The notes beneath the pieces were generated by a model. The model was not told the DNA's origin. It did no database searches and worked only from the letters and a program-made list of their open reading frames with translations. From the sequence record OZ346205.1: a DNA stretch of 64,000 bases; one strand, given 5' to 3'. Source of the DNA: a phage. This document shows, in pieces, positions 36,057 through 57,447 of this stretch (its first letter is position 1; every line of letters begins with the position of its first letter). Both the position numbers and the translations under genes were made by a program.

Positions 36057-38480
36057 ATGAGTATGTGGTCTTTCGATTTTGAGTCATCCGGTTTGCTGGA
36101 AGACCCAGATCTTTATTATCACTGCGGTCTGTTTAAAGAGCTGAATAAGAACCGTTTTATGCTGTTCCTTCCTCTAAATGACCGCACACACTACTCCGAG
36201 GAGGATATAGAAAAGGCTAAGAACTTCATTCTGTCAAAGAAAACTCTTTATAAAGATTTTGAAGTTCGCATAGCAGATTTTTCGGAGTTGGAAGGTTGGC
36301 TTACAGGCAATTCTGACTGGTCACCAACAGCTTTGAACTGCCATAACTGCTACAGTTATGACTTTATGCTAATGGAAAGATTATCCGGTATTCATTTTGA
36401 TATGTTCCGTGATCCTAAATGCATGGGGACTATCAACGACCACCAGGTTAACCTGTTTGATACGTTGGCTATGAGCCGAATCTTGTGGCCTGATCGCCCT
36501 TTACCAAAAGGTTGTCCGGACGCTGTATTCAACCCGGTTACTAAGAAAATGCAACCTGTTGGTCCTCACGGCCTTATGGCATGGGGCTACGCCCTTGGTA
36601 ACCAGAAAGTTCAAATTGATGACTGGCGCGATCTTCCGTTGTGGAAGTATGTGGATCGTGTATTCGAGGACGTTATCATCCAGGAGCTGCTCTGGAAAGA
36701 GCTGGTAGCGGAATCAAAAGGTGTATTCTACGGCAAATCTGACATGCAGAACTTTATGTACGATCCAGCCAAAGAGAAGCCGAAAGGGTTCAAGAAGATC
36801 ACCTGGAAGAACGCATTACGTCGAGGCATGCTGCAGCACTTCCTGATGGAGCTGCAGGCCCGTCAGGGTGTATACTTCGACATAGATGGAGCTATTGCTT
36901 TACGTGACCGTTGCGATGCGTGGATGAAAGAAATCGCTGATCGTGTTGAACCACAACTACCTTTAAAAGAGCTGTCAATGTCTCAGCGGCCCAAGTTCCC
37001 TGAAAAGCCGTTTAACCAAGACGGGACAATCTCTAATAATGGTTGGAAATGGTTAAAAGATAAGCTTGGCTATCCTGTAGACATGAGTGCTTTAGAGTTC
37101 AAAGCCCCGCCTAAGCGAGCATTTACCTCTACAGGAGATGTCAGCAAGATGGGGATAAAATGGTGTGAAGAGATGGGCTGCAAAGACCCCGATAAGATGG
37201 CTGATTTCTTGAGAGGCTATATTAAGGGCACCTCCACACCACAACCCTTACCTAAAGAGCTGATGGATCAGGCAATAAGTGATCTGCAGCAGAAGCGAAT
37301 GCCTGACTGCAAGATACCTATGAAAATCAGCAATCAGGACGACATCAAGCGATACCTAATCAGTGCTGGTTGGCTCCCAACAATGTGGAGAACTAAAGAT
37401 GTAACTAAAGACAGCAAGAAGAAAGCTTTACCTGATGCAGATGTTGATGCACGAGTATATGCATATATGGACGAGCTTTTGGAGTCAGAGTATTGTGACC
37501 TAATTATCAACTTCTGGAACAAAACTGATGCTAAGTTCCAGACAACCGTGCACAAGTTCCGAAGCTTTCCTAACTCCGAAAGGATTAAAAAGGAAGTATT
37601 CGGGAAAATACGTAGAAAAGCCAGGGCACTTATTACTTCTCCGCAACTGAAAGATACGTTTGGACACCTATGCCCAAATCTTGAAAAATTGAACGGAGAG
37701 ATGGCTAAAGATATCGTCTTGTGGTTATCATTGCGAAACCGCAGATCGGTCCTTGATCCAATCAAGGAGGATAAGGTTGATACTGGTCTTCTTAATCACC
37801 CACGTTTGAAGATTGACCATAAGCTTCCTGCTAAAAGCTCTGGATTAACAAACACTTCCAGACAGAAACACAGTATTTGTGCAAACATGCCTAAACCATC
37901 TCCTAAAGTGGTTATGGGTAAAGAGATGCGTAGTCTGTGGGGTGTTCCTCCGGGATACTTTGAGATCGGTATTGACGGGTCCAACTTAGAGCAGCTTATC
38001 GGGGCTTGGGGTGCCTTTGAGTTCGACAACGGCCTGTATTATGATGTTGTAAGTAACGGAGACGCACACCAAAACAATGCTGAGGCATATACAAAAGTGG
38101 CAGGCAGAGAGGTGTCCCGTAACGACGGTAAACCTATCACGTATGGGGTTATGTACGGGGCACAAAAAGATAAAGTTGCAGATATGTTGGACATCTCCCC
38201 AGAGTTGGGACAAAGGGTAATCGATGCACTCTGGGATGCCAACCCAGGTCTTAAGGGGCGCAAAGAGGATCTGGAGAAATTCTGGGAAGCAACAGGTAAG
38301 AAGTTTATCTACTCTTTTGATGGTCATGCTATCTGGACCCGATCTAAACACTCTTTACTTAATGCATACCAACAAAATGGCGGTGCATCGTTGTGTGACT
38401 TAGTTGGAATACTCATGCACCACCAGATGGTGAAGCGTGGGTGGTACGATGAAGGTGTTCGTCGTATTATTTATTACCAT
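36057..38480 (+). CDS. family A DNA polymerase, exon 1 (ends inside motif C at ...YYH)
   Basis: Exo motif FDFESSG; motif A IDGSNLEQL; motif B KPITYGVMYGAQ; frame terminates 2 codons after the His of the expected HDE motif. Confidence 0.8.
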
Positions 38481-38756
38481 AAATAACATTGTGGCTTCAT
38501 AGAGTAATCTATGTCGAATAACCTCTTTAACTGCGGGAAGCCTAAACCTTATGGCAAGGTAATCCGCAACGAAGCGCTCAAAAGAGCGAACGCTCAGAGG
38601 CCATTCCGAAAGGAAGTAGACCAGCAAGTGCGGTCGAAATGGGAGGATTCCTGTGGTTGCTTATCATAGGAATATGAGATGGTCCGATCCTACGTGAAAA
38701 CGTATGGCTATGCACGTAATGGTGCGGGGTAGCTTAACGACCTACCTGAACTATTG
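38481..38756 (+). ncRNA. putative group I-like self-splicing intron (no endonuclease ORF)
   Basis: 276-nt ORF-free insert between ...YYH and DEYQ...; exon ends in U with GUGG 11 nt downstream able to pair CCAU (P1-like); insert ends in G. Confidence 0.55.
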
Positions 38757-39110
38757 GATGAGTACCAACTTCAAGTGCCTGACACACCGAAGTATAAGAC
38801 TGTGTACACCTTCGACACAATTGAAGAACTGGAAGCATTTAAGGCAGAGCAGGAAGCCAAACTTCATGTGTTCGACGGTCATAAGTACAAAAAGGCACGC
38901 AAGGATGAGGACGGAAACGAAGTGGTTGACAGAGACGGAAACACGGTGTACGATCCTATCCTGAACGATGACGGAAAGCTTGAACTTATCTGGAGCCCTG
39001 TGGGTGAAATGGTGGTACATTGCTTCTGGCAAGCTTCTAAAATGATGGGAGTCCCGTTCCAGATCACAGGTGAATACTTGTGTGGTCGTAATTGGGGTGA
39101 TTGTCACTAA
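38757..39110 (+). CDS. family A DNA polymerase, exon 2 (motif C remainder to C-terminus)
   Basis: Begins DEYQ completing YHDEYQ; ends ...GRNWGDCH, matching the Pol I / T7 C-terminal G.NW..H pattern. Confidence 0.75.
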   Translation, partial: DEYQLQVPDTPKYKTVYTFDTIEELEAFKAEQEAKLHVFDGHKYKKARKDEDGNEVVDRDGNTVYDPILNDDGKLELIWSPVGEMVVHCFWQASKMMGVPFQITGEYLCGRNWGDCH

Positions 39111-49048: not shown

Positions 49049-49105
49049 TTGACACGCTGCAAAATTCAAGTAAACTAGTCACAAAAGGCGGGAATGTTTC
49101 CCGCC
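49049..49105 (+). promoter_or_regulatory. sigma70-like promoter plus 5' leader hairpin (cassette)
   Basis: TTGACA, spacer, weak -10 (TAAACT); hairpin GGCGGGAA-tgt-TTCCCGCC then CAACACAAAGGAAAAAGATC ATG. Confidence 0.4.
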
Positions 49106-49124
49106 AACACAAAGGAAAAAGATC

Positions 49125-49529
49125 ATGAATAAGAACGTACGCCGCATCATGAACGAACTGGCAAACGATGAAAAAATTATTGACATGCATTTGATCAACA
49201 TTTGCCGCCGTTGTGTAACATACAACAACCGCGCCGCAAAAGCGCGTGAGATGAACGCAAAAGGCACCTTAAAGCCATTCCAGGTGGTGGTAAAGGCCAT
49301 TAAAGATGTAACTAATACGGCAAACCAGGTACAGGGGAACACCAACGAGAGTACCAATATTGATCCGGCTTACATCATGAAACGGATCCGGACCTGCAAG
49401 AACAAAGAGCAAGTGTATAATGTCATAGACTGGTTGGATTCTATGGGCGATGTGGTGTACAATAGATTCTCGGCAGCTATTGAGATCCAGCTTGACAGGT
49501 TAGACGGTAAAGTACTTAAAACTTACTAA
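49125..49529 (+). CDS. hypothetical protein (134 aa)
   Basis: Track ORF behind cassette leader. Confidence 0.55.
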   Translation: MNKNVRRIMNELANDEKIIDMHLINICRRCVTYNNRAAKAREMNAKGTLKPFQVVVKAIKDVTNTANQVQGNTNESTNIDPAYIMKRIRTCKNKEQVYNVIDWLDSMGDVVYNRFSAAIEIQLDRLDGKVLKTY

Positions 49530-49530
49530 A

Positions 49531-49576
49531 TTTATTTTTAGATGGCCTTGACTCCAGGGCCATCAATAAAGTAAAT
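49531..49576 (+). repeat. conserved about 45-bp palindromic element, copy 1
   Basis: TTTATTTTTA-GATGGCC-ttgactccag-GGCCATC-AATAAAGTAAA, immediately after a stop codon. Confidence 0.6.
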
Positions 49577-49609
49577 TAATCTCAGCTAAGCGAAAAAGGG
49601 GGCTTTAAG

Positions 49610-49729
49610 ATGAGCACTACACGCCAATACACAAAGGTAACTATTATCGCCTGCGTTGTCGGTTACATCCTGGCGCAAATGTTAATGAGTAGCGCTAACA
49701 GTTTTGCAAAATTTTTCTTAAATTTTTAA
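49610..49729 (+). CDS. small hydrophobic peptide (39 aa)
   Basis: ORF below the track cut-off; RBS AAAGGGGG; one predicted TM segment. Confidence 0.35.
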   Translation: MSTTRQYTKVTIIACVVGYILAQMLMSSANSFAKFFLNF

Positions 49730-49783
49730 TTGACAAGCTAACTTAGATTGATATACTTAAACACGTAAACGGGAAAACTTCCC
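49730..49783 (+). promoter_or_regulatory. sigma70-like promoter plus 5' leader hairpin (cassette)
   Basis: TTGACA, 16-17-nt spacer, TATACT; hairpin GGGAAAACTTCCC then ACACAAAAGGAGAAAACACC ATG. Confidence 0.5.
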
Positions 49784-49808
49784 AGAACACACAAAAGGAG
49801 AAAACACC

Positions 49809-50150
49809 ATGACTACTATGGCCGCCGCAGAAAAAGCTATTCAGATCGCCGCACTGAAAAAACAGATCGCAGACCTTGAGAACAAGATCGATAACTTTGA
49901 AATCGACGAGGACAAGTACGACGAAAACTATGATGAATGGTTAGACGAGATCTACGGCGAAATTATGATCGGAAACATTTCTTTTCTTCCGTCGCGTATC
50001 CTCAAGGAGCTAGATCCTATCGCTTACCGCTGCGGATTTAGCGACTACATCGACAGCCTGGATATTGAGGACGATGAAGAATACCAGGAATTACAGACAG
50101 AGTTAGAAGAAGCAAAAGAAGAGCTTGCAGAACTGGAAGAAAACGAGTAA
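49809..50150 (+). CDS. acidic coiled-coil-like protein (113 aa)
   Basis: Track ORF; Glu/Asp-rich with heptad-like pattern. Confidence 0.55.
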   Translation: MTTMAAAEKAIQIAALKKQIADLENKIDNFEIDEDKYDENYDEWLDEIYGEIMIGNISFLPSRILKELDPIAYRCGFSDYIDSLDIEDDEEYQELQTELEEAKEELAELEENE

Positions 50151-50163
50151 GATTATTTTTAGA

Positions 50164-50207
50164 TGGCCTTGACTCCAGGGCCATCAATAAAGTAAACTTT
50201 ATACTGT
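50164..50207 (+). repeat. conserved about 45-bp palindromic element, copy 2
   Basis: Near-identical to 49531-49576. Confidence 0.6.
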
Positions 50208-50239
50208 TAACACTGAACTAATGCATAGGAGTTAAAACC

Positions 50240-50485
50240 ATGGCAGCACTAATCACCAAATATTATGCCCCTACCAACACCAAAAGCGCCCGTATCATGG
50301 TAAAAGGCTTCGGACGTAAAAAGGTGTACACCTGGGATTATGCCTTAGACACGGAAGACAACTACACCAACGCGATGACCGATTTTATTAATGATCTGAA
50401 CACGCGGATCTTGACAAATTATAAAATTACCGATATTGCCTATATAGGGGAAGGCGGGATCTGTTTTGTCGGTATCGTCAAATAA
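50240..50485 (+). CDS. hypothetical protein (81 aa)
   Basis: RBS AGGAG then ATG. Confidence 0.5.
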   Translation: MAALITKYYAPTNTKSARIMVKGFGRKKVYTWDYALDTEDNYTNAMTDFINDLNTRILTNYKITDIAYIGEGGICFVGIVK

Positions 50486-50487
50486 GC

Positions 50488-50530
50488 TGTTTTTTCGGTG
50501 GTCCTGGTAGCAGGGCCATCTATAAAGATA
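50488..50530 (+). repeat. degenerate copy of the about 45-bp element
   Basis: TTTTTCGGTGGTCCTGGTAGCAGGGCCATCTATAAAGATAG; retains GGGCCATC.ATAAAG core. Confidence 0.4.
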
Positions 50531-50560
50531 GTTTATCAATACAATGAAAGGAGAAAGTAC

Positions 50561-50914
50561 ATGATCAGCGGGGCAAGTTTTATTATTGGCGCTATTGCTA
50601 CGGCTTTAATTGTAAACAAGATCCAATCTAAAAACGAAAAAGATAGCAACGCCCTTACAGAATACCCGTTTTGGGTATTCAACGACAATGAAGACTATAT
50701 TATCAAGTACAAGAATGAGAAGGGCGACCAGGTAACACCGCGACCGATCCCGGCTTACAAGATGCAAGAAACACTATACCGCCTAAAGGCTGGAGGCGCA
50801 AAAATCGTAGACTTTTGGGGATACGATCACACAGATCAGGAAGTTATAAAGCGCCGTATCCGGGCTATTCAGGCCAATATTGAAGTTAGCAAGGGGGGAA
50901 TATATGAAGATTAA
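50561..50914 (+). CDS. membrane-anchored hypothetical protein (117 aa)
   Basis: ATG after AAAGGAGAAAG; N-terminal TM helix. Confidence 0.5.
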   Translation: MISGASFIIGAIATALIVNKIQSKNEKDSNALTEYPFWVFNDNEDYIIKYKNEKGDQVTPRPIPAYKMQETLYRLKAGGAKIVDFWGYDHTDQEVIKRRIRAIQANIEVSKGGIYED

Positions 50915-51101
50915 TTTTGAGAAGATTGTAAAGCGATCTCATGCTTCCGAAGAGCTGCCGGAACGCCGCCAGCGCAACAATAAACTGAATAAGCCAAAAA
51001 GATTTGGGAAGATCTGGCGGAATCATTATGATCGCAAATTACCGGGCCTGCTTTTGGAACGTGAACGACAGGCGGAACGATACCGCCACAAAGGCAAATA
51101 A
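50904..51101 (+). CDS. small basic protein (65 aa)
   Basis: ATG after AAGGGGGG; Arg/Lys-rich. Confidence 0.45.
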   Translation: MKINFEKIVKRSHASEELPERRQRNNKLNKPKRFGKIWRNHYDRKLPGLLLERERQAERYRHKGK

Positions 51102-51109
51102 CAACCAAC

Positions 51110-51136
51110 GCCCCGCCATTGTGCGGGGCTTTTTAT
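51110..51136 (+). terminator. intrinsic terminator
   Basis: GCCCCGC-cattgt-GCGGGGC followed by TTTTTATTT. Confidence 0.6.
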
Positions 51137-51282
51137 TTCTATCCTACGAATAGCGCCCCTGGTTGGCCCTGTAAGCGCCAAAAAGGCCCCACCTATGCAA
51201 TCGCCCACCTTTAACCTGAAAACATCGCTTAGGGCCGTTTTATGGCGTTAAAAATATCATTGACAGTGATTTTATTTAAAGC

Positions 51283-51311
51283 TTGACATCTTAAACAGGT
51301 TAGCTATACTA
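51283..51311 (+). promoter_or_regulatory. sigma70-like promoter (cassette)
   Basis: TTGACA, 16-17-nt spacer, TATACT. Confidence 0.45.
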
Positions 51312-51344
51312 ACCACATCAAAGAGAGAGAAAGGAGTAAACGCC

Positions 51345-51605
51345 ATGCGTAAATTAAAAAATTTTGATAAAGTTGATGTTGTCCTGAATAATTTTTACTA
51401 CTGCAACAACAAGGCCATTTGGTGGCGTGATAGTTCCACCGATAAAGTCAAGGCGCGCTTTCTCCAGGGGCACTGGCAAGGCCGCCCAGTGATTAAAATC
51501 ATGGGGCAATTGGTAGCGTTTAAAAATTGCCGCCGTGTTGATGACGTTGAAGAGATCTTGAATATTTTACGCCACAATAATTTAAAAAATAGTGTTGACA
51601 AGTAA
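51345..51605 (+). CDS. hypothetical protein (86 aa)
   Basis: RBS AAAGGAG then ATG. Confidence 0.5.
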   Translation: MRKLKNFDKVDVVLNNFYYCNNKAIWWRDSSTDKVKARFLQGHWQGRPVIKIMGQLVAFKNCRRVDDVEEILNILRHNNLKNSVDK

Positions 51606-55766: not shown

Positions 55767-56012
55767 ATGAAAAGCAATAAAGGTTATAACGGTTACAAAA
55801 ACAAAACTCATTGGAATGTAAGCCTTTGGATTAATAACGATGAGTCATTGTACCGGTTGGCCCAAGGCTTTATTAACGCCAATGCTAATCGTAATGATGC
55901 GGCGCGGGATATGATGCTTTTTCTGGAGCTAACCGGACAAGATAAGACCCTGGACGGCTTCAAGTACAGCACTACGGCGATCCGTGCCGCGATGGTTGGA
56001 ATGAAACACTAA
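55767..56012 (+). CDS. hypothetical protein (81 aa)
   Basis: ATG after AAGAAGAGG; last clear plus-strand gene before the strand switch. Confidence 0.5.
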   Translation: MKSNKGYNGYKNKTHWNVSLWINNDESLYRLAQGFINANANRNDAARDMMLFLELTGQDKTLDGFKYSTTAIRAAMVGMKH

Positions 56013-56067
56013 AAGCACATAGCTGCCTTACCCTGGGGCTGTGGTAGCGGCCCCATGAATAAGGTTA

Positions 56068-56550
56068 CTAACAGAAGAGAATAAACACCATGAAACAGAA
56101 ATTAATCGATGCAGTGATCTTGGTTATTGCCCTGGGTATTGGCCTGATTGCAACCATGTCTAATATGATCTTGTCTTCCAACGGTATCGGGTGAGGTTGG
56201 CAAATGATCACTAACAAAACAGGCAAAACGGAATTTTTACGCAACTTACAGATCGGCAAGCCTGAGATCTGGTACTGCACTAAAACACCGCGTGACGAAA
56301 TGGCTTCAAAAGGGGTCATGAACGAATAAACGGCATCATCATCTGCTTCAGGGAATGCTCCCAAAGACTTCATGTCTGAGCCCTTGACAAATACAAGGTT
56401 TTGATCAAAAGCTTCTTGGGGATCAATCCGATACATATTTCGTAGAATATCGCTTACCTCCTCATCAAGAGGTGAGTATGCTGTGCACGTTTTTCCGATC
56501 AAGCTTTGAGAATCAGGGTATCCACCTGAAGTTTTAAAATAAACAATCAT
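56068..56550 (-). CDS. hypothetical protein; 3' extent uncertain
   Basis: RBS GAGGTGA before the ATG at 56550; N-terminal about 75 residues look protein-like, the remainder is Cys/Pro-rich and overlaps plus-strand small ORFs. Confidence 0.35.
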   Translation of the reverse strand: MIVYFKTSGGYPDSQSLIGKTCTAYSPLDEEVSDILRNMYRIDPQEAFDQNLVFVKGSDMKSLGAFPEADDDAVYSFMTPFEAISSRGVLVQYQISGLPICKLRKNSVLPVLLVIICQPHPIPLEDKIILDMVAIRPIPRAITKITASINFCFMVFILFC

Positions 56551-56640: not shown

Positions 56641-56910
56641 TTATTCCTCTACAATCTCATACACATCAGGAGTTACAATCAACTCTTCTCCGTTACCCGG
56701 TGCAATAAACACCACCAAACCTTCAGGTGTGTGCTTTTTAGCCATCTCGATAACATCTTCCCGCAGGGCTGGCTCCATCAGATCAAAACCTTCACCCAGG
56801 GCATCACGAACCACCTTCATATAGTCCACTGGTTGTGCTTCAACAATCATGCCTTCAACCAGACCACAATTTTTGTCTGCCAGCTCAGTTTTGAATAATT
56901 TAATTTTCAT
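56641..56910 (-). CDS. hypothetical acidic protein (89 aa)
   Basis: RBS GAGGAGACC before the start. Confidence 0.5.
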   Translation of the reverse strand: MKIKLFKTELADKNCGLVEGMIVEAQPVDYMKVVRDALGEGFDLMEPALREDVIEMAKKHTPEGLVVFIAPGNGEELIVTPDVYEIVEE

Positions 56911-57047: not shown

Positions 57048-57365
57048 TCATTCTCTAAAGTCAATCTTTACTTTGCCTTTCCCCTTACCTTTCTTTCCAC
57101 CGCATTTAGCCAGTTGACGTGCTGCAACATCTACCATACGGTCAGTTGCCTCGTAAGCATCACTGCCTTTAGCTTTGGCAATAACTTCTTTTCCAGAATT
57201 GTCAAAAATGAACGCCATAACTTCCTGGTGATCATTTTCAACTTTTACACTCACACGTGCATAGTTGGCAGAGGGATGCAAACGCTCCAGCTTAGACATT
57301 TTGTGGGAAATGAAAGACACCATACCTTCAGGGATTTCTACGTTGCCAGTGATTTCAATTTGCAT
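57048..57365 (-). CDS. hpf: ribosome hibernation promoting factor / RaiA (YfiA)-like protein (105 aa)
   Basis: MQIEITGN.VEI...KLE...V.VKVE...G.EVIAKAKG.D.Y.A.D...ARQL.K aligns along its length with the bacterial HPF/YfiA pattern as recalled. Confidence 0.7.
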   Translation of the reverse strand: MQIEITGNVEIPEGMVSFISHKMSKLERLHPSANYARVSVKVENDHQEVMAFIFDNSGKEVIAKAKGSDAYEATDRMVDVAARQLAKCGGKKGKGKGKVKIDFRE

Positions 57366-57447
57366 AACGTGTTCCTTTTAAAGAAGAGGGAACCAAACCC
57401 TCTTTGAAAACAATGATACTAAATCTGAAGCGTTGTGTCAACAGTTT

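What the first reader, a model, noticed from the sequence alone, without database searches (positions are those of the whole stretch)
57048..57365. Phage-encoded ribosome hibernation factor (HPF/RaiA-like)
The 105-aa product aligns along its whole length with the bacterial HPF/YfiA pattern (MQ.NITG..VEI...KLE...V.VKVE...G.E..A.A.G.D.Y.A.D...ARQL.K) and has a short Lys/Gly-rich tail. A phage-borne HPF would let the phage stabilise or silence host ribosomes during infection; it sits in a block of small, probably early, genes.
Basis: partly seen in the sequence, partly recalled or inferred. Interest (0 to 1): 0.6.

Follow-up and report, generated by a model that had tools for sequence, protein, structure and literature searches.

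The report
Known phage ribosome-hibernation-factor homolog (rV5)
This is a real gene for a homolog of the bacterial ribosome hibernation factor HPF, carried by an rV5-like E. coli phage, but it has been annotated since 2008 and was published and tested in 2019, so only its role in infection remains unknown.

Summary
ORF 57048..57365 (minus strand) encodes a 105-aa protein. It passes the curated cut-offs of Pfam PF02482 (Ribosomal_S30AE) and TIGR00741 (HPF/YfiA family). It is 43% identical to E. coli HPF and 25% to RaiA, and it is predicted to adopt the beta-alpha-beta-beta-beta-alpha HPF fold with a disordered Lys/Gly tail.

The window comes from an rV5-like Vequintavirus. All 118 phage records that hold this local region also hold the gene, many under HPF, RaiA or sigma-54-modulation names. 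Mizuno et al. 2019 (PMC6375957) described rV5 HPF and expressed it in E. coli. They did not find it in salt-washed 70S/100S ribosomes and saw no effect on 100S.

New here, all incremental:
- The gene is under purifying selection (dN/dS 0.05-0.27).
- It is syntenic in a second, 64%-identical rV5-like lineage.
- Its base composition matches the surrounding phage genes.
- A conserved sigma-70-type promoter lies directly upstream.
- Both lineages replaced several conserved ribosome-contact residues (R17, T53, H55, K80, K89). They kept K23, K26, R83 and K87 and have basic tails.

Verdict: already known; a divergent HPF-family member whose mechanism is unresolved. Low interest.

The parts
57048..57365 (-). 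hpf-like gene (105 aa; ortholog of rV5 gp139/ORF144). Residues 1-89 form the HPF/YfiA core domain; residues 90-105 form a disordered Lys/Gly-rich tail.
   Evidence: ORF; Pfam, NCBIfam, PHROG and PDB matches; predicted structure and fold search; 98% identical to rV5 YP_002003641.
57048..57098 (-). Coding region of the C-terminal tail (GGKKGKGKGKVKIDFRE plus the stop codon). It is built on an AAR/GGN repeat that is prone to single-base frameshifts.
   Evidence: pLDDT below 50 for residues 90-105. Natural variants are truncated or frameshifted here (Murica, APECc02, IMGVR_b). Net charge of the tail is +5.
57413..57441 (-). Sigma-70-type promoter-like site, TTGACA-17 nt-TATCAT (11 of 12 matches); corresponds to the promoter P144 annotated in rV5.
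   Evidence: Consensus scan; annotated promoter in NC_011041; the -35 TTGACA is conserved in all alleles, including the divergent P0123 lineage. Predicted only, with no expression data.
57366..57408 (-). 5' leader with a small hairpin (AAGAGGG/CCCUCUU, 7-nt loop) and a Shine-Dalgarno-like AAGGAA 8 nt before the ATG.
   Evidence: Fold of -9.9 kcal/mol but z = -0.94, so not exceptional. The roughly 26-nt segment that makes the 3' arm and the new SD is absent in the P0123 lineage. Significance is uncertain.

Best explanation
The gene encodes a genuine but divergent member of the HPF/YfiA (Ribosomal_S30AE) family. An ancestor of the rV5-like phages captured it from a gammaproteobacterial host long ago, and it has since been inherited vertically as a core gene of the genus. 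It is probably transcribed by host sigma-70 RNA polymerase from its own promoter within the array of small genes. Most likely mechanism (inferred, not shown): the core domain binds vacant host ribosomes in the 30S channel between head and body, where A- and P-site tRNA and mRNA lie, as cellular HPF and YfiA do. It would use the retained basic residues K22, K25, R83, K87 and K91 (phage numbering) plus the flexible polylysine tail. Several conserved contacts are replaced (R17V, T53F, H55F, K80V, K89G in E. coli numbering), so binding is expected to be altered or more salt-labile than that of host HPF. The tail emerges where YfiA's RMF-excluding tail emerges. My preferred reading is therefore that the protein holds idle ribosomes as protected 70S monomers that are easy to reactivate, in competition with host HPF/RMF/RaiA. 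I consider this more likely than the protein driving 100S dimer formation. Whether the net effect is protection, silencing or anti-hibernation is not established.
For: Family membership: PF02482 at 46 bits (cut-off 23.7) and TIGR00741 at 44.3 bits (cut-off 40.9); best PDB sequence matches are E. coli HPF. Fold: AF2 model with pLDDT 84 and elements E2-7, H13-29, E33-42, E47-55, E60-67, H70-89; Foldseek TM 0.87-0.94 to V. cholerae and E. coli HPF, with the top 37 hits all hibernation factors. HPF type: 43% identity to HPF versus 25% to RaiA. Maintained function: dN/dS 0.05-0.27 over the core among 13 alleles; against the second lineage, dS is saturated and dN is 0.28. The gene is present in all 118 phage records that hold the local region. 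It is syntenic in a lineage whose neighbouring genes are 42-83% identical. Old acquisition: GC 42.1% against 42.4% for the surrounding array; only 38-44% identity to enterobacterial HPFs. Promoter. Contact-residue map: contact list from bioRxiv 10.1101/2025.10.07.680626, mapped onto the alignment. Basic tails in both lineages, +5 and +3. Role of the YfiA tail in blocking RMF: as cited in PMC7764885.
Against: The one direct experiment is negative. rV5 HPF expressed from pBAD24 in E. coli was found in crude extract but not in 70S or 100S fractions after high-salt washing, and 100S levels did not change (PMC6375957). The authors themselves list genuine loss of ribosome binding as one possible explanation. 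Three positions that are basic in more than 97% of the enterobacterial HPFs compared are not basic in either phage lineage (R17, K80, K89; R17 and K80 are also basic in the RaiAs). The protein scores far below the HPF and RaiA equivalog cut-offs: 52 against 125, and 14 against 158. Natural alleles with truncated tails exist, so the last 6-10 residues are not essential. No expression-timing data were found.
Confidence: 0.55

Rival explanations
1. Classical short-HPF function: the phage protein cooperates with host RMF to convert 70S (90S) ribosomes into 100S dimers. This would silence and preserve host ribosomes, which is the first reader's 'stabilise or silence' idea.
For: The core is closer to HPF than to RaiA (43% versus 25%). 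NF007780 (HPF) is the best NCBIfam hit. The closest structures are short HPFs.
Against: Expression in E. coli had no discernible effect on 100S, and the protein was absent from 100S fractions (PMC6375957). The window has no RMF homolog. The protein has a C-terminal extension that short HPFs lack, at the position where YfiA's tail antagonises RMF. Shutting down ribosomes early in a lytic cycle has no obvious benefit (inference).
Confidence: 0.15
2. Anti-hibernation competitor, as proposed by Mizuno et al.: a weak or rapidly exchanging binder that displaces or excludes host HPF, RaiA and RMF. This would keep or return ribosomes to a translatable state so the phage can replicate in slow-growing or stationary hosts.
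For: Conserved contact residues are replaced in both lineages while the fold stays under purifying selection. Association appears salt-labile or undetectable. A basic tail lies at the YfiA-tail position. The hypothesis is stated in PMC6375957. This overlaps with the variant preferred under the best explanation.
Against: A weaker binder cannot outcompete tighter host factors unless it is abundant. There are no expression or phenotype data. Mizuno et al. saw no change in 100S, although their cells had few 100S to begin with.
Confidence: 0.2
3. Neofunctionalised RNA-binding protein: the HPF fold is retained, but the protein no longer binds the ribosomal decoding centre and acts on another RNA or protein target.
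For: The protein was not detected on ribosomes. R17, T53, H55, K80 and K89 are lost in both lineages. New basic residues (R37, K59, K64, K66, R76) and a basic tail give pI 9.0 against 6.5 for E. coli HPF.
Against: R83, K87, K23 and K26 are retained, and these contact m4C1402 and the m3U1498 region in cellular HPF/YfiA. Some cellular family members among the distant representatives also lack K80 or carry F at position 55. No alternative target is suggested by the gene's context, since the neighbours have no known domains.
Confidence: 0.1
4. Decaying passenger gene with no function.
For: Some alleles carry tail frameshifts, and one (inoa) has a 6-residue N-terminal deletion.
Against: dN/dS is 0.05-0.27. 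The gene is present and intact in all 118 records with the region and in a lineage with saturated synonymous divergence. The promoter is conserved.
Confidence: 0.02

Closest known systems
rV5 gp139 / ORF144 (YP_002003641, ABI79209), the 'HPF' of Escherichia phage rV5 and other Vequintavirus phages
   Same: Orthologous gene: 98% amino-acid identity, same length, same neighbours and the same annotated upstream promoter. It is described as a phage HPF in PMC6375957 and PMC6969025.
   Different: The window allele has two private substitutions, T12P and G104R. T12 is T in all other phage alleles examined and in 97-100% of the cellular homologs compared. This exact sequence is not in the 15-billion-protein collection.
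E. coli short HPF (YhbH; PDB 2RQL, 4V8H, 6H4N)
   Same: Same fold and length class; 43% identity. K23, K26, E44, G59, A63, D69, Y71, A73, D75, D79, R83, Q84, L85, K87 and K91 are retained.
   Different: Scores 52 bits against the equivalog cut-off of 125. R17V, T53F, H55F, H62I, K80V and K89G substitutions. A tail about 10 residues longer and Lys/Gly-rich; pI 9.0 against 6.5. Not located in an rpoN operon, based on my own knowledge of the bacterial context; the phage context is. No 100S effect or stable ribosome association was detected experimentally.
E. coli YfiA/RaiA (pY)
   Same: Same fold. Both have a C-terminal extension beyond helix alpha2, which in YfiA blocks RMF binding and 100S formation.
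   Different: Only 25% identity; 14 bits against the 158-bit equivalog cut-off. The phage tail is basic (+5) whereas the YfiA tail is acidic (-4), and the two are unrelated in sequence.
HPF/RaiA homologs of jumbo phages (Xanthomonas phage XaC1 gp256; Cronobacter phage GAP32, reported by Mizuno et al.)
   Same: Phage-borne Ribosomal_S30AE proteins.
   Different: Independent acquisitions. XaC1 is 22% identical, 129 aa long, has an acidic YfiA-like tail and retains K80. GAP32 was not recovered by tblastn here.

Membership tests
HPF/YfiA family (Pfam PF02482 Ribosomal_S30AE; TIGR00741) | Profile match above the curated whole-protein cut-off | tested here: met
   PF02482: 46 bits against 23.7, E=9e-12, profile positions 1-83 of 88. 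TIGR00741: 44.3 bits against 40.9.
HPF/YfiA family (Pfam PF02482 Ribosomal_S30AE; TIGR00741) | [quoted passage not shown] | tested here: met
   AF2 model with pLDDT 84 has exactly this order of elements. Foldseek against the PDB: the top 37 hits are all HPF, YfiA/pY or long-HPF N-terminal domains, with TM up to 0.94 and rmsd 1.0 A to 4HEI. This is a predicted structure, not a solved one.
HPF/YfiA family (Pfam PF02482 Ribosomal_S30AE; TIGR00741) | Conserved basic residues of helix alpha2 and alpha1 that contact 16S rRNA (K80, R83, K87, K89, K91; K26) | tested here: inconclusive
   R83, K87, K91 and K26 are retained. K80 is V (T in the second lineage) and K89 is G (S); R17 is also V (contact list from bioRxiv 10.1101/2025.10.07.680626). 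Four of 11 distant cellular representatives also lack K80.
HPF/YfiA family (Pfam PF02482 Ribosomal_S30AE; TIGR00741) | Binding to the 30S decoding-centre channel of vacant ribosomes | not testable with these tools
   The published test was negative under high-salt ribosome preparation: rV5 HPF was found in extract but not in 70S or 100S fractions (PMC6375957).
Enterobacterial short HPF equivalog (NCBIfam NF007780) | Score at or above the equivalog cut-off | tested here: not met
   52.3 bits against a cut-off of 125.
Enterobacterial short HPF equivalog (NCBIfam NF007780) | Promotes RMF-dependent 100S formation | not testable with these tools
   Mizuno et al. saw no discernible effect on 100S. 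There is no RMF homolog in the window.
RaiA/YfiA equivalog (NCBIfam NF007654) | Score at or above the equivalog cut-off | tested here: not met
   14.4 bits against a cut-off of 158 and 25% identity. The RefSeq product name 'RaiA' for this gene therefore names the wrong subfamily.
Long HPF (Gram-positive type) | C-terminal dimerisation domain | tested here: not met
   The protein ends 16 residues after helix alpha2, in a disordered tail.

The most novel reading that the evidence does not exclude
The rV5-type HPF is not a hibernation factor in the cellular sense but a phage-adapted 'placeholder' or anti-hibernation factor. Under this reading it is a deliberately weakened, fast-exchanging occupant of the HPF site, and its polylysine tail excludes RMF. 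Together these would prevent or reverse host 100S/RaiA hibernation and let the phage replicate in slow-growing or stationary E. coli. The replacement of R17, T53, H55, K80 and K89 in two lineages under purifying selection would then be adaptive rather than decay.
Probability: 0.2. Interest if true: 0.65.

Novelty: already known. Interest (0 to 1): 0.2.

Why it matters
Phage manipulation of host ribosome hibernation bears on how virulent phages infect slow-growing or dormant bacteria, which matters for phage therapy. However, this gene has been annotated since the rV5 genome record and was analysed and expressed by Mizuno et al. in 2019. Rediscovering it adds nothing new. What remains open is the mechanism. 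The residue-level differences from cellular HPF and the second lineage reported here could guide a binding or deletion experiment, but they are incremental.

Tried and rejected
- The first indexed homolog search with the phage protein alone returned only the phage cluster. I had to seed the search with E. coli HPF and YfiA to reach cellular homologs.
- The exhaustive phmmer scan gave only 14 hits at E<=1e-3 because the library is so large. One of them (P0124, 1160 aa) is a repeat protein that scored through eight weak stretches, so I rejected it as spurious.
- The P0123 lineage was not found in IMG/VR or in JGI metagenome contigs. It was located only through the exact-sequence look-ups.
- The 89-aa gene two positions downstream, labelled 'sigma 54 modulation factor' in several records, was tested as a possible second HPF-like gene. 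It has no Pfam hit, so I rejected it as annotation carry-over.
- The 5' leader hairpin was considered as a regulatory element or terminator. Its stability is not exceptional (z = -0.94), so I did not pursue it.
- A search for a phage RMF partner found only chance-level matches.
- I looked for shared 'phage-specific' HPF features by comparing with the jumbo phage XaC1. There are none, and XaC1 is an independent acquisition.
- Polikanov et al. 2012 could not be read. Contact residues were taken from a 2025 preprint instead.
- Four literature searches for functional follow-up of phage HPF found nothing beyond Mizuno 2019 in the held library.

Full report
**Observation.** The ORF at 57048..57365 exists on the minus strand, runs ATG to TGA, and encodes 105 aa (sequence).

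**Identity.**
- Pfam PF02482 (Ribosomal_S30AE) matches at E=9e-12 and 46 bits, above the gathering score of 23.7, covering residues 3-88.
- NCBIfam TIGR00741 (HPF/YfiA family) scores 44.3 against a cut-off of 40.9. The narrower equivalog models are not reached: HPF NF007780 scores 52.3 against 125, and RaiA NF007654 scores 14.4 against 158.
- PHROGs places the protein in phrog_12469 ('unknown function', E=1e-69), with a weaker match to the S30AE phrog_8990.
- The best PDB sequence matches are E. coli HPF chains (2RQL, 4V8H, 6H4N; E about 1e-11 to 1e-10, residues 1-89).
- A three-way alignment gives 43% identity to E. coli HPF and 25% to YfiA/RaiA. Enterobacterial HPFs are 36-41% identical in the multiple alignment (38-44% by BLASTP) and RaiAs 20-28%.
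- An AlphaFold2 model built on a 36-sequence alignment has mean pLDDT 84. Its elements are E2-7, H13-29, E33-42, E47-55, E60-67 and H70-89, which is the beta-alpha-beta-beta-beta-alpha order. Residues 90-105 are disordered.
- Foldseek against the PDB returns only hibernation factors in its first 37 hits. The best are V. cholerae HPF 4HEI (TM 0.93, rmsd 1.0 A) and E. coli HPF.

**Source and prior knowledge.**
- The region is 99% identical to Escherichia phages WalterGehring and JohannBauhin and 96-98% identical to rV5 and its relatives (genus Vequintavirus).
- tblastn finds the protein at more than 90% identity in 118 phage records; the 119th record is a Salmonella genome with its own hpf.
- Annotators have called it 'ribosome hibernation factor', 'hpf', 'sigma 54 modulation factor' and 'RaiA'. 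A few records wrongly call it 'ATP-dependent protease La type I'.
- In the rV5 reference it is gp139/ORF144, with an annotated sigma-70 promoter P144 directly upstream.
- Mizuno et al. 2019 (PMC6375957) listed rV5 HPF among virus-encoded ribosomal proteins and placed it among gammaproteobacterial sequences. They proposed that it might compete with the cellular factors and prevent dimer formation.
- The same authors expressed it from pBAD24 in E. coli. Mass spectrometry found it in crude extract but not in 70S or 100S fractions prepared under high-stringency salt, and 100S levels did not change. They named growth phase, genuine loss of binding, or dissociation during the washes as possible reasons.
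- Mathieu et al. 2020 (PMC6969025) repeat the hpf annotation for five gut rV5-like phages.
- Further searches found no later functional work in the held library.

The finding is therefore already known.

**What the present analysis adds.**

1. *The gene is maintained.* Nei-Gojobori dN/dS over the core (residues 1-89), between the window allele and 13 others, is 0.05-0.27. Every record that holds the local 1.6-kb region also holds hpf (118 of 118).

2. *There is a second lineage.* The exhaustive representative search found P0123 (103 aa, 64% identical, different tail).
   - It is deposited as 'RaiA [Escherichia coli]' but lies on contigs of up to 136.8 kb from E. coli assemblies and Logan runs. 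It sits in the same small-gene array downstream of PhoH-like and ClpP-like genes.
   - That contig is colinear with the window, and its neighbouring genes are 42-83% identical at the protein level, so hpf's 63% is typical for the lineage.
   - Synonymous sites between the two lineages are saturated, while dN is 0.28.
   - hpf was therefore present in the common ancestor and has been inherited vertically.
   - Its GC content (42.1%) matches the surrounding array (42.4%). Together with about 40% identity to any cellular HPF, this argues against the 'relatively recent' transfer suggested in 2019.

3. *Expression signals.* A TTGACA-17-TATCAT site lies at 57441..57413 (minus strand). The -35 element is conserved in both lineages. 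The rV5 lineage has an extra segment of about 26 nt in the leader, which creates a small hairpin and a new Shine-Dalgarno sequence. The hairpin is not unusually stable (z = -0.94). No timing data exist: the rV5 genome paper only predicts promoters and describes 88 mostly small ORFs in this part of the genome.

4. *The binding surface has changed.* A 2025 cryo-EM preprint (10.1101/2025.10.07.680626) lists the conserved contacts of Gram-negative HPF/YfiA:
   - K80, R83, K87, K89 and K91 on helix alpha2;
   - T53 and residue 62 against m2G966;
   - H55/E60 against the uS9 C-terminus;
   - K26/Q29 near m3U1498.

   I mapped these onto an alignment with 39 HPFs, 61 RaiAs and 11 distant representatives.
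   - Both phage lineages keep K23, K26, R83 and K87; K91 is kept in the rV5 lineage only.
   - Both replace R17 (V/V), T53 (F/R), H55 (F/F), K80 (V/T) and K89 (G/S).
   - They gain R at position 29 and K at 64 and 66 (both lineages) and R76 (rV5 lineage only) in E. coli numbering, plus R37 and K59 (phage numbering) and basic tails (+5 and +3), giving pI 9.0-9.4 against 6.5 for E. coli HPF.
   - Some distant cellular members also lack K80 or carry F at position 55, so this does not disqualify the protein. It does give a concrete, testable reason for the salt-labile or absent ribosome association seen in 2019.

5. *The tail is variable.* Its DNA is an AAR/GGN repeat. Murica and APECc02 carry single-base frameshifts that truncate or replace the last residues, and one metagenomic allele adds a Gly-Lys unit. 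The Lys/Gly portion is always kept. By position it corresponds to the YfiA tail, which blocks RMF binding, but it is basic where YfiA's tail is acidic.

6. *No partner, and no shared phage signature.* The window has no RMF homolog and no tRNA genes. The neighbouring small genes have no Pfam domains. Other phage HPF homologs are independent acquisitions. XaC1's is 22% identical, has an acidic tail and retains K80.

**Mechanism.**
- Shown: family membership by sequence, predicted fold, purifying selection, synteny across two lineages, and a conserved promoter-like site.
- Inferred: binding to the canonical 30S site through the retained R83/K87/K26 cluster and the basic tail, and altered or weaker affinity caused by the substitutions.
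- Speculative: the direction of the effect. I favour a role as a monomeric 70S 'placeholder' that competes with host HPF/RMF/RaiA, over classical promotion of 100S. My reasons are the C-terminal extension, the lack of a 100S effect in the published experiment, and the lack of any obvious benefit to a lytic phage from silencing ribosomes.
- A neofunctionalised RNA-binding protein remains possible. A decaying passenger gene is effectively excluded.

**Verdict.** The remaining open question, what the protein does during infection, is of moderate interest to specialists. The present data sharpen that question but do not answer it.

Noticed in passing
window 38471-38706 (+): Rfam group I intron (RF00028, 64.7 bits against a gathering score of 50, full-length model match). 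It starts at the end of the 809-aa DNA-polymerase-like ORF 36057..38486 (+). A downstream ORF at 38754..39110 (+) may be the second exon.
   Followed up: partly
window ~49100-51560: About 2.5 kb with no annotated genes in the closest relative (WalterGehring 93911-96377), lying between convergent gene arrays. The rV5 paper also reports a stretch with 'no observable ORFs' (rV5 coordinates 104013-106618). Several chance-length ORFs exist here, but I did not evaluate them or look for RNAs or repeats beyond the Rfam gathering scan, which found nothing.
   Followed up: no
window 56641-56910 (-): An 89-aa gene two positions downstream of hpf is labelled 'sigma 54 modulation factor' in several GenBank records (inoa_99, APCEc02 gp082, A6-1 and the MN8506xx series). 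It has no Pfam hit at E<=0.1, so this is probably annotation carry-over from its neighbour. Conversely, hpf itself is labelled 'ATP-dependent protease La type I' in the bov10K2 and NWU phage records.
   Followed up: yes
window ~56000-56550: Mosaic junction. The closest relatives stop matching to the left of about 56300. The window has a 160-aa ORF at 56068..56550 (-) where WalterGehring has an 87-aa gene.
   Followed up: no
window 57048-57365 (-), codons 12 and 104: This allele has two private substitutions, T12P and G104R. T12 is T in every other phage allele examined and in 97-100% of the cellular HPF/RaiA sequences compared. The exact protein is absent from the 15-billion-sequence collection.
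   Followed up: partly
L009 (phage inoa) 301-600: The inoa allele lacks six residues near the N-terminus (MQIEITGNVEITEG becomes MQIEITEG), apparently through deletion between the EIT...EIT direct repeats. This would shorten strand beta1 and its loop; it may be a defective allele or an assembly artefact.
   Followed up: no
L004-L007 (e.g. AATLQU010000010.1, 136.8 kb, GCA_012894635.1): A divergent rV5-like phage lineage is seen only as phage-sized contigs in E. coli genome assemblies and Logan runs. It is absent from the INPHARED phage collection, IMG/VR and the JGI metagenome contigs searched. It is colinear with the window. About 22% of the 16-kb locus aligns at the DNA level, at about 72% identity, and neighbouring proteins are 42-83% identical.
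   Followed up: partly
public records MG0656xx (e.g. L017): Eighteen 'Campylobacter phage' records marked UNVERIFIED are Vequintavirus genomes whose hpf region is 94-98% identical to that of the E. coli phages, so the host label is doubtful.
   Followed up: no
window 57366-57408 (-) versus L005 7975-8000: The rV5 lineage has an insertion of about 26 nt in the hpf leader relative to the P0123 lineage. The ancestral Shine-Dalgarno sequence (GAGGGA) becomes the 5' arm of a hairpin, and a new AAGGAA Shine-Dalgarno sequence follows. The hairpin is not statistically unusual.
   Followed up: partly
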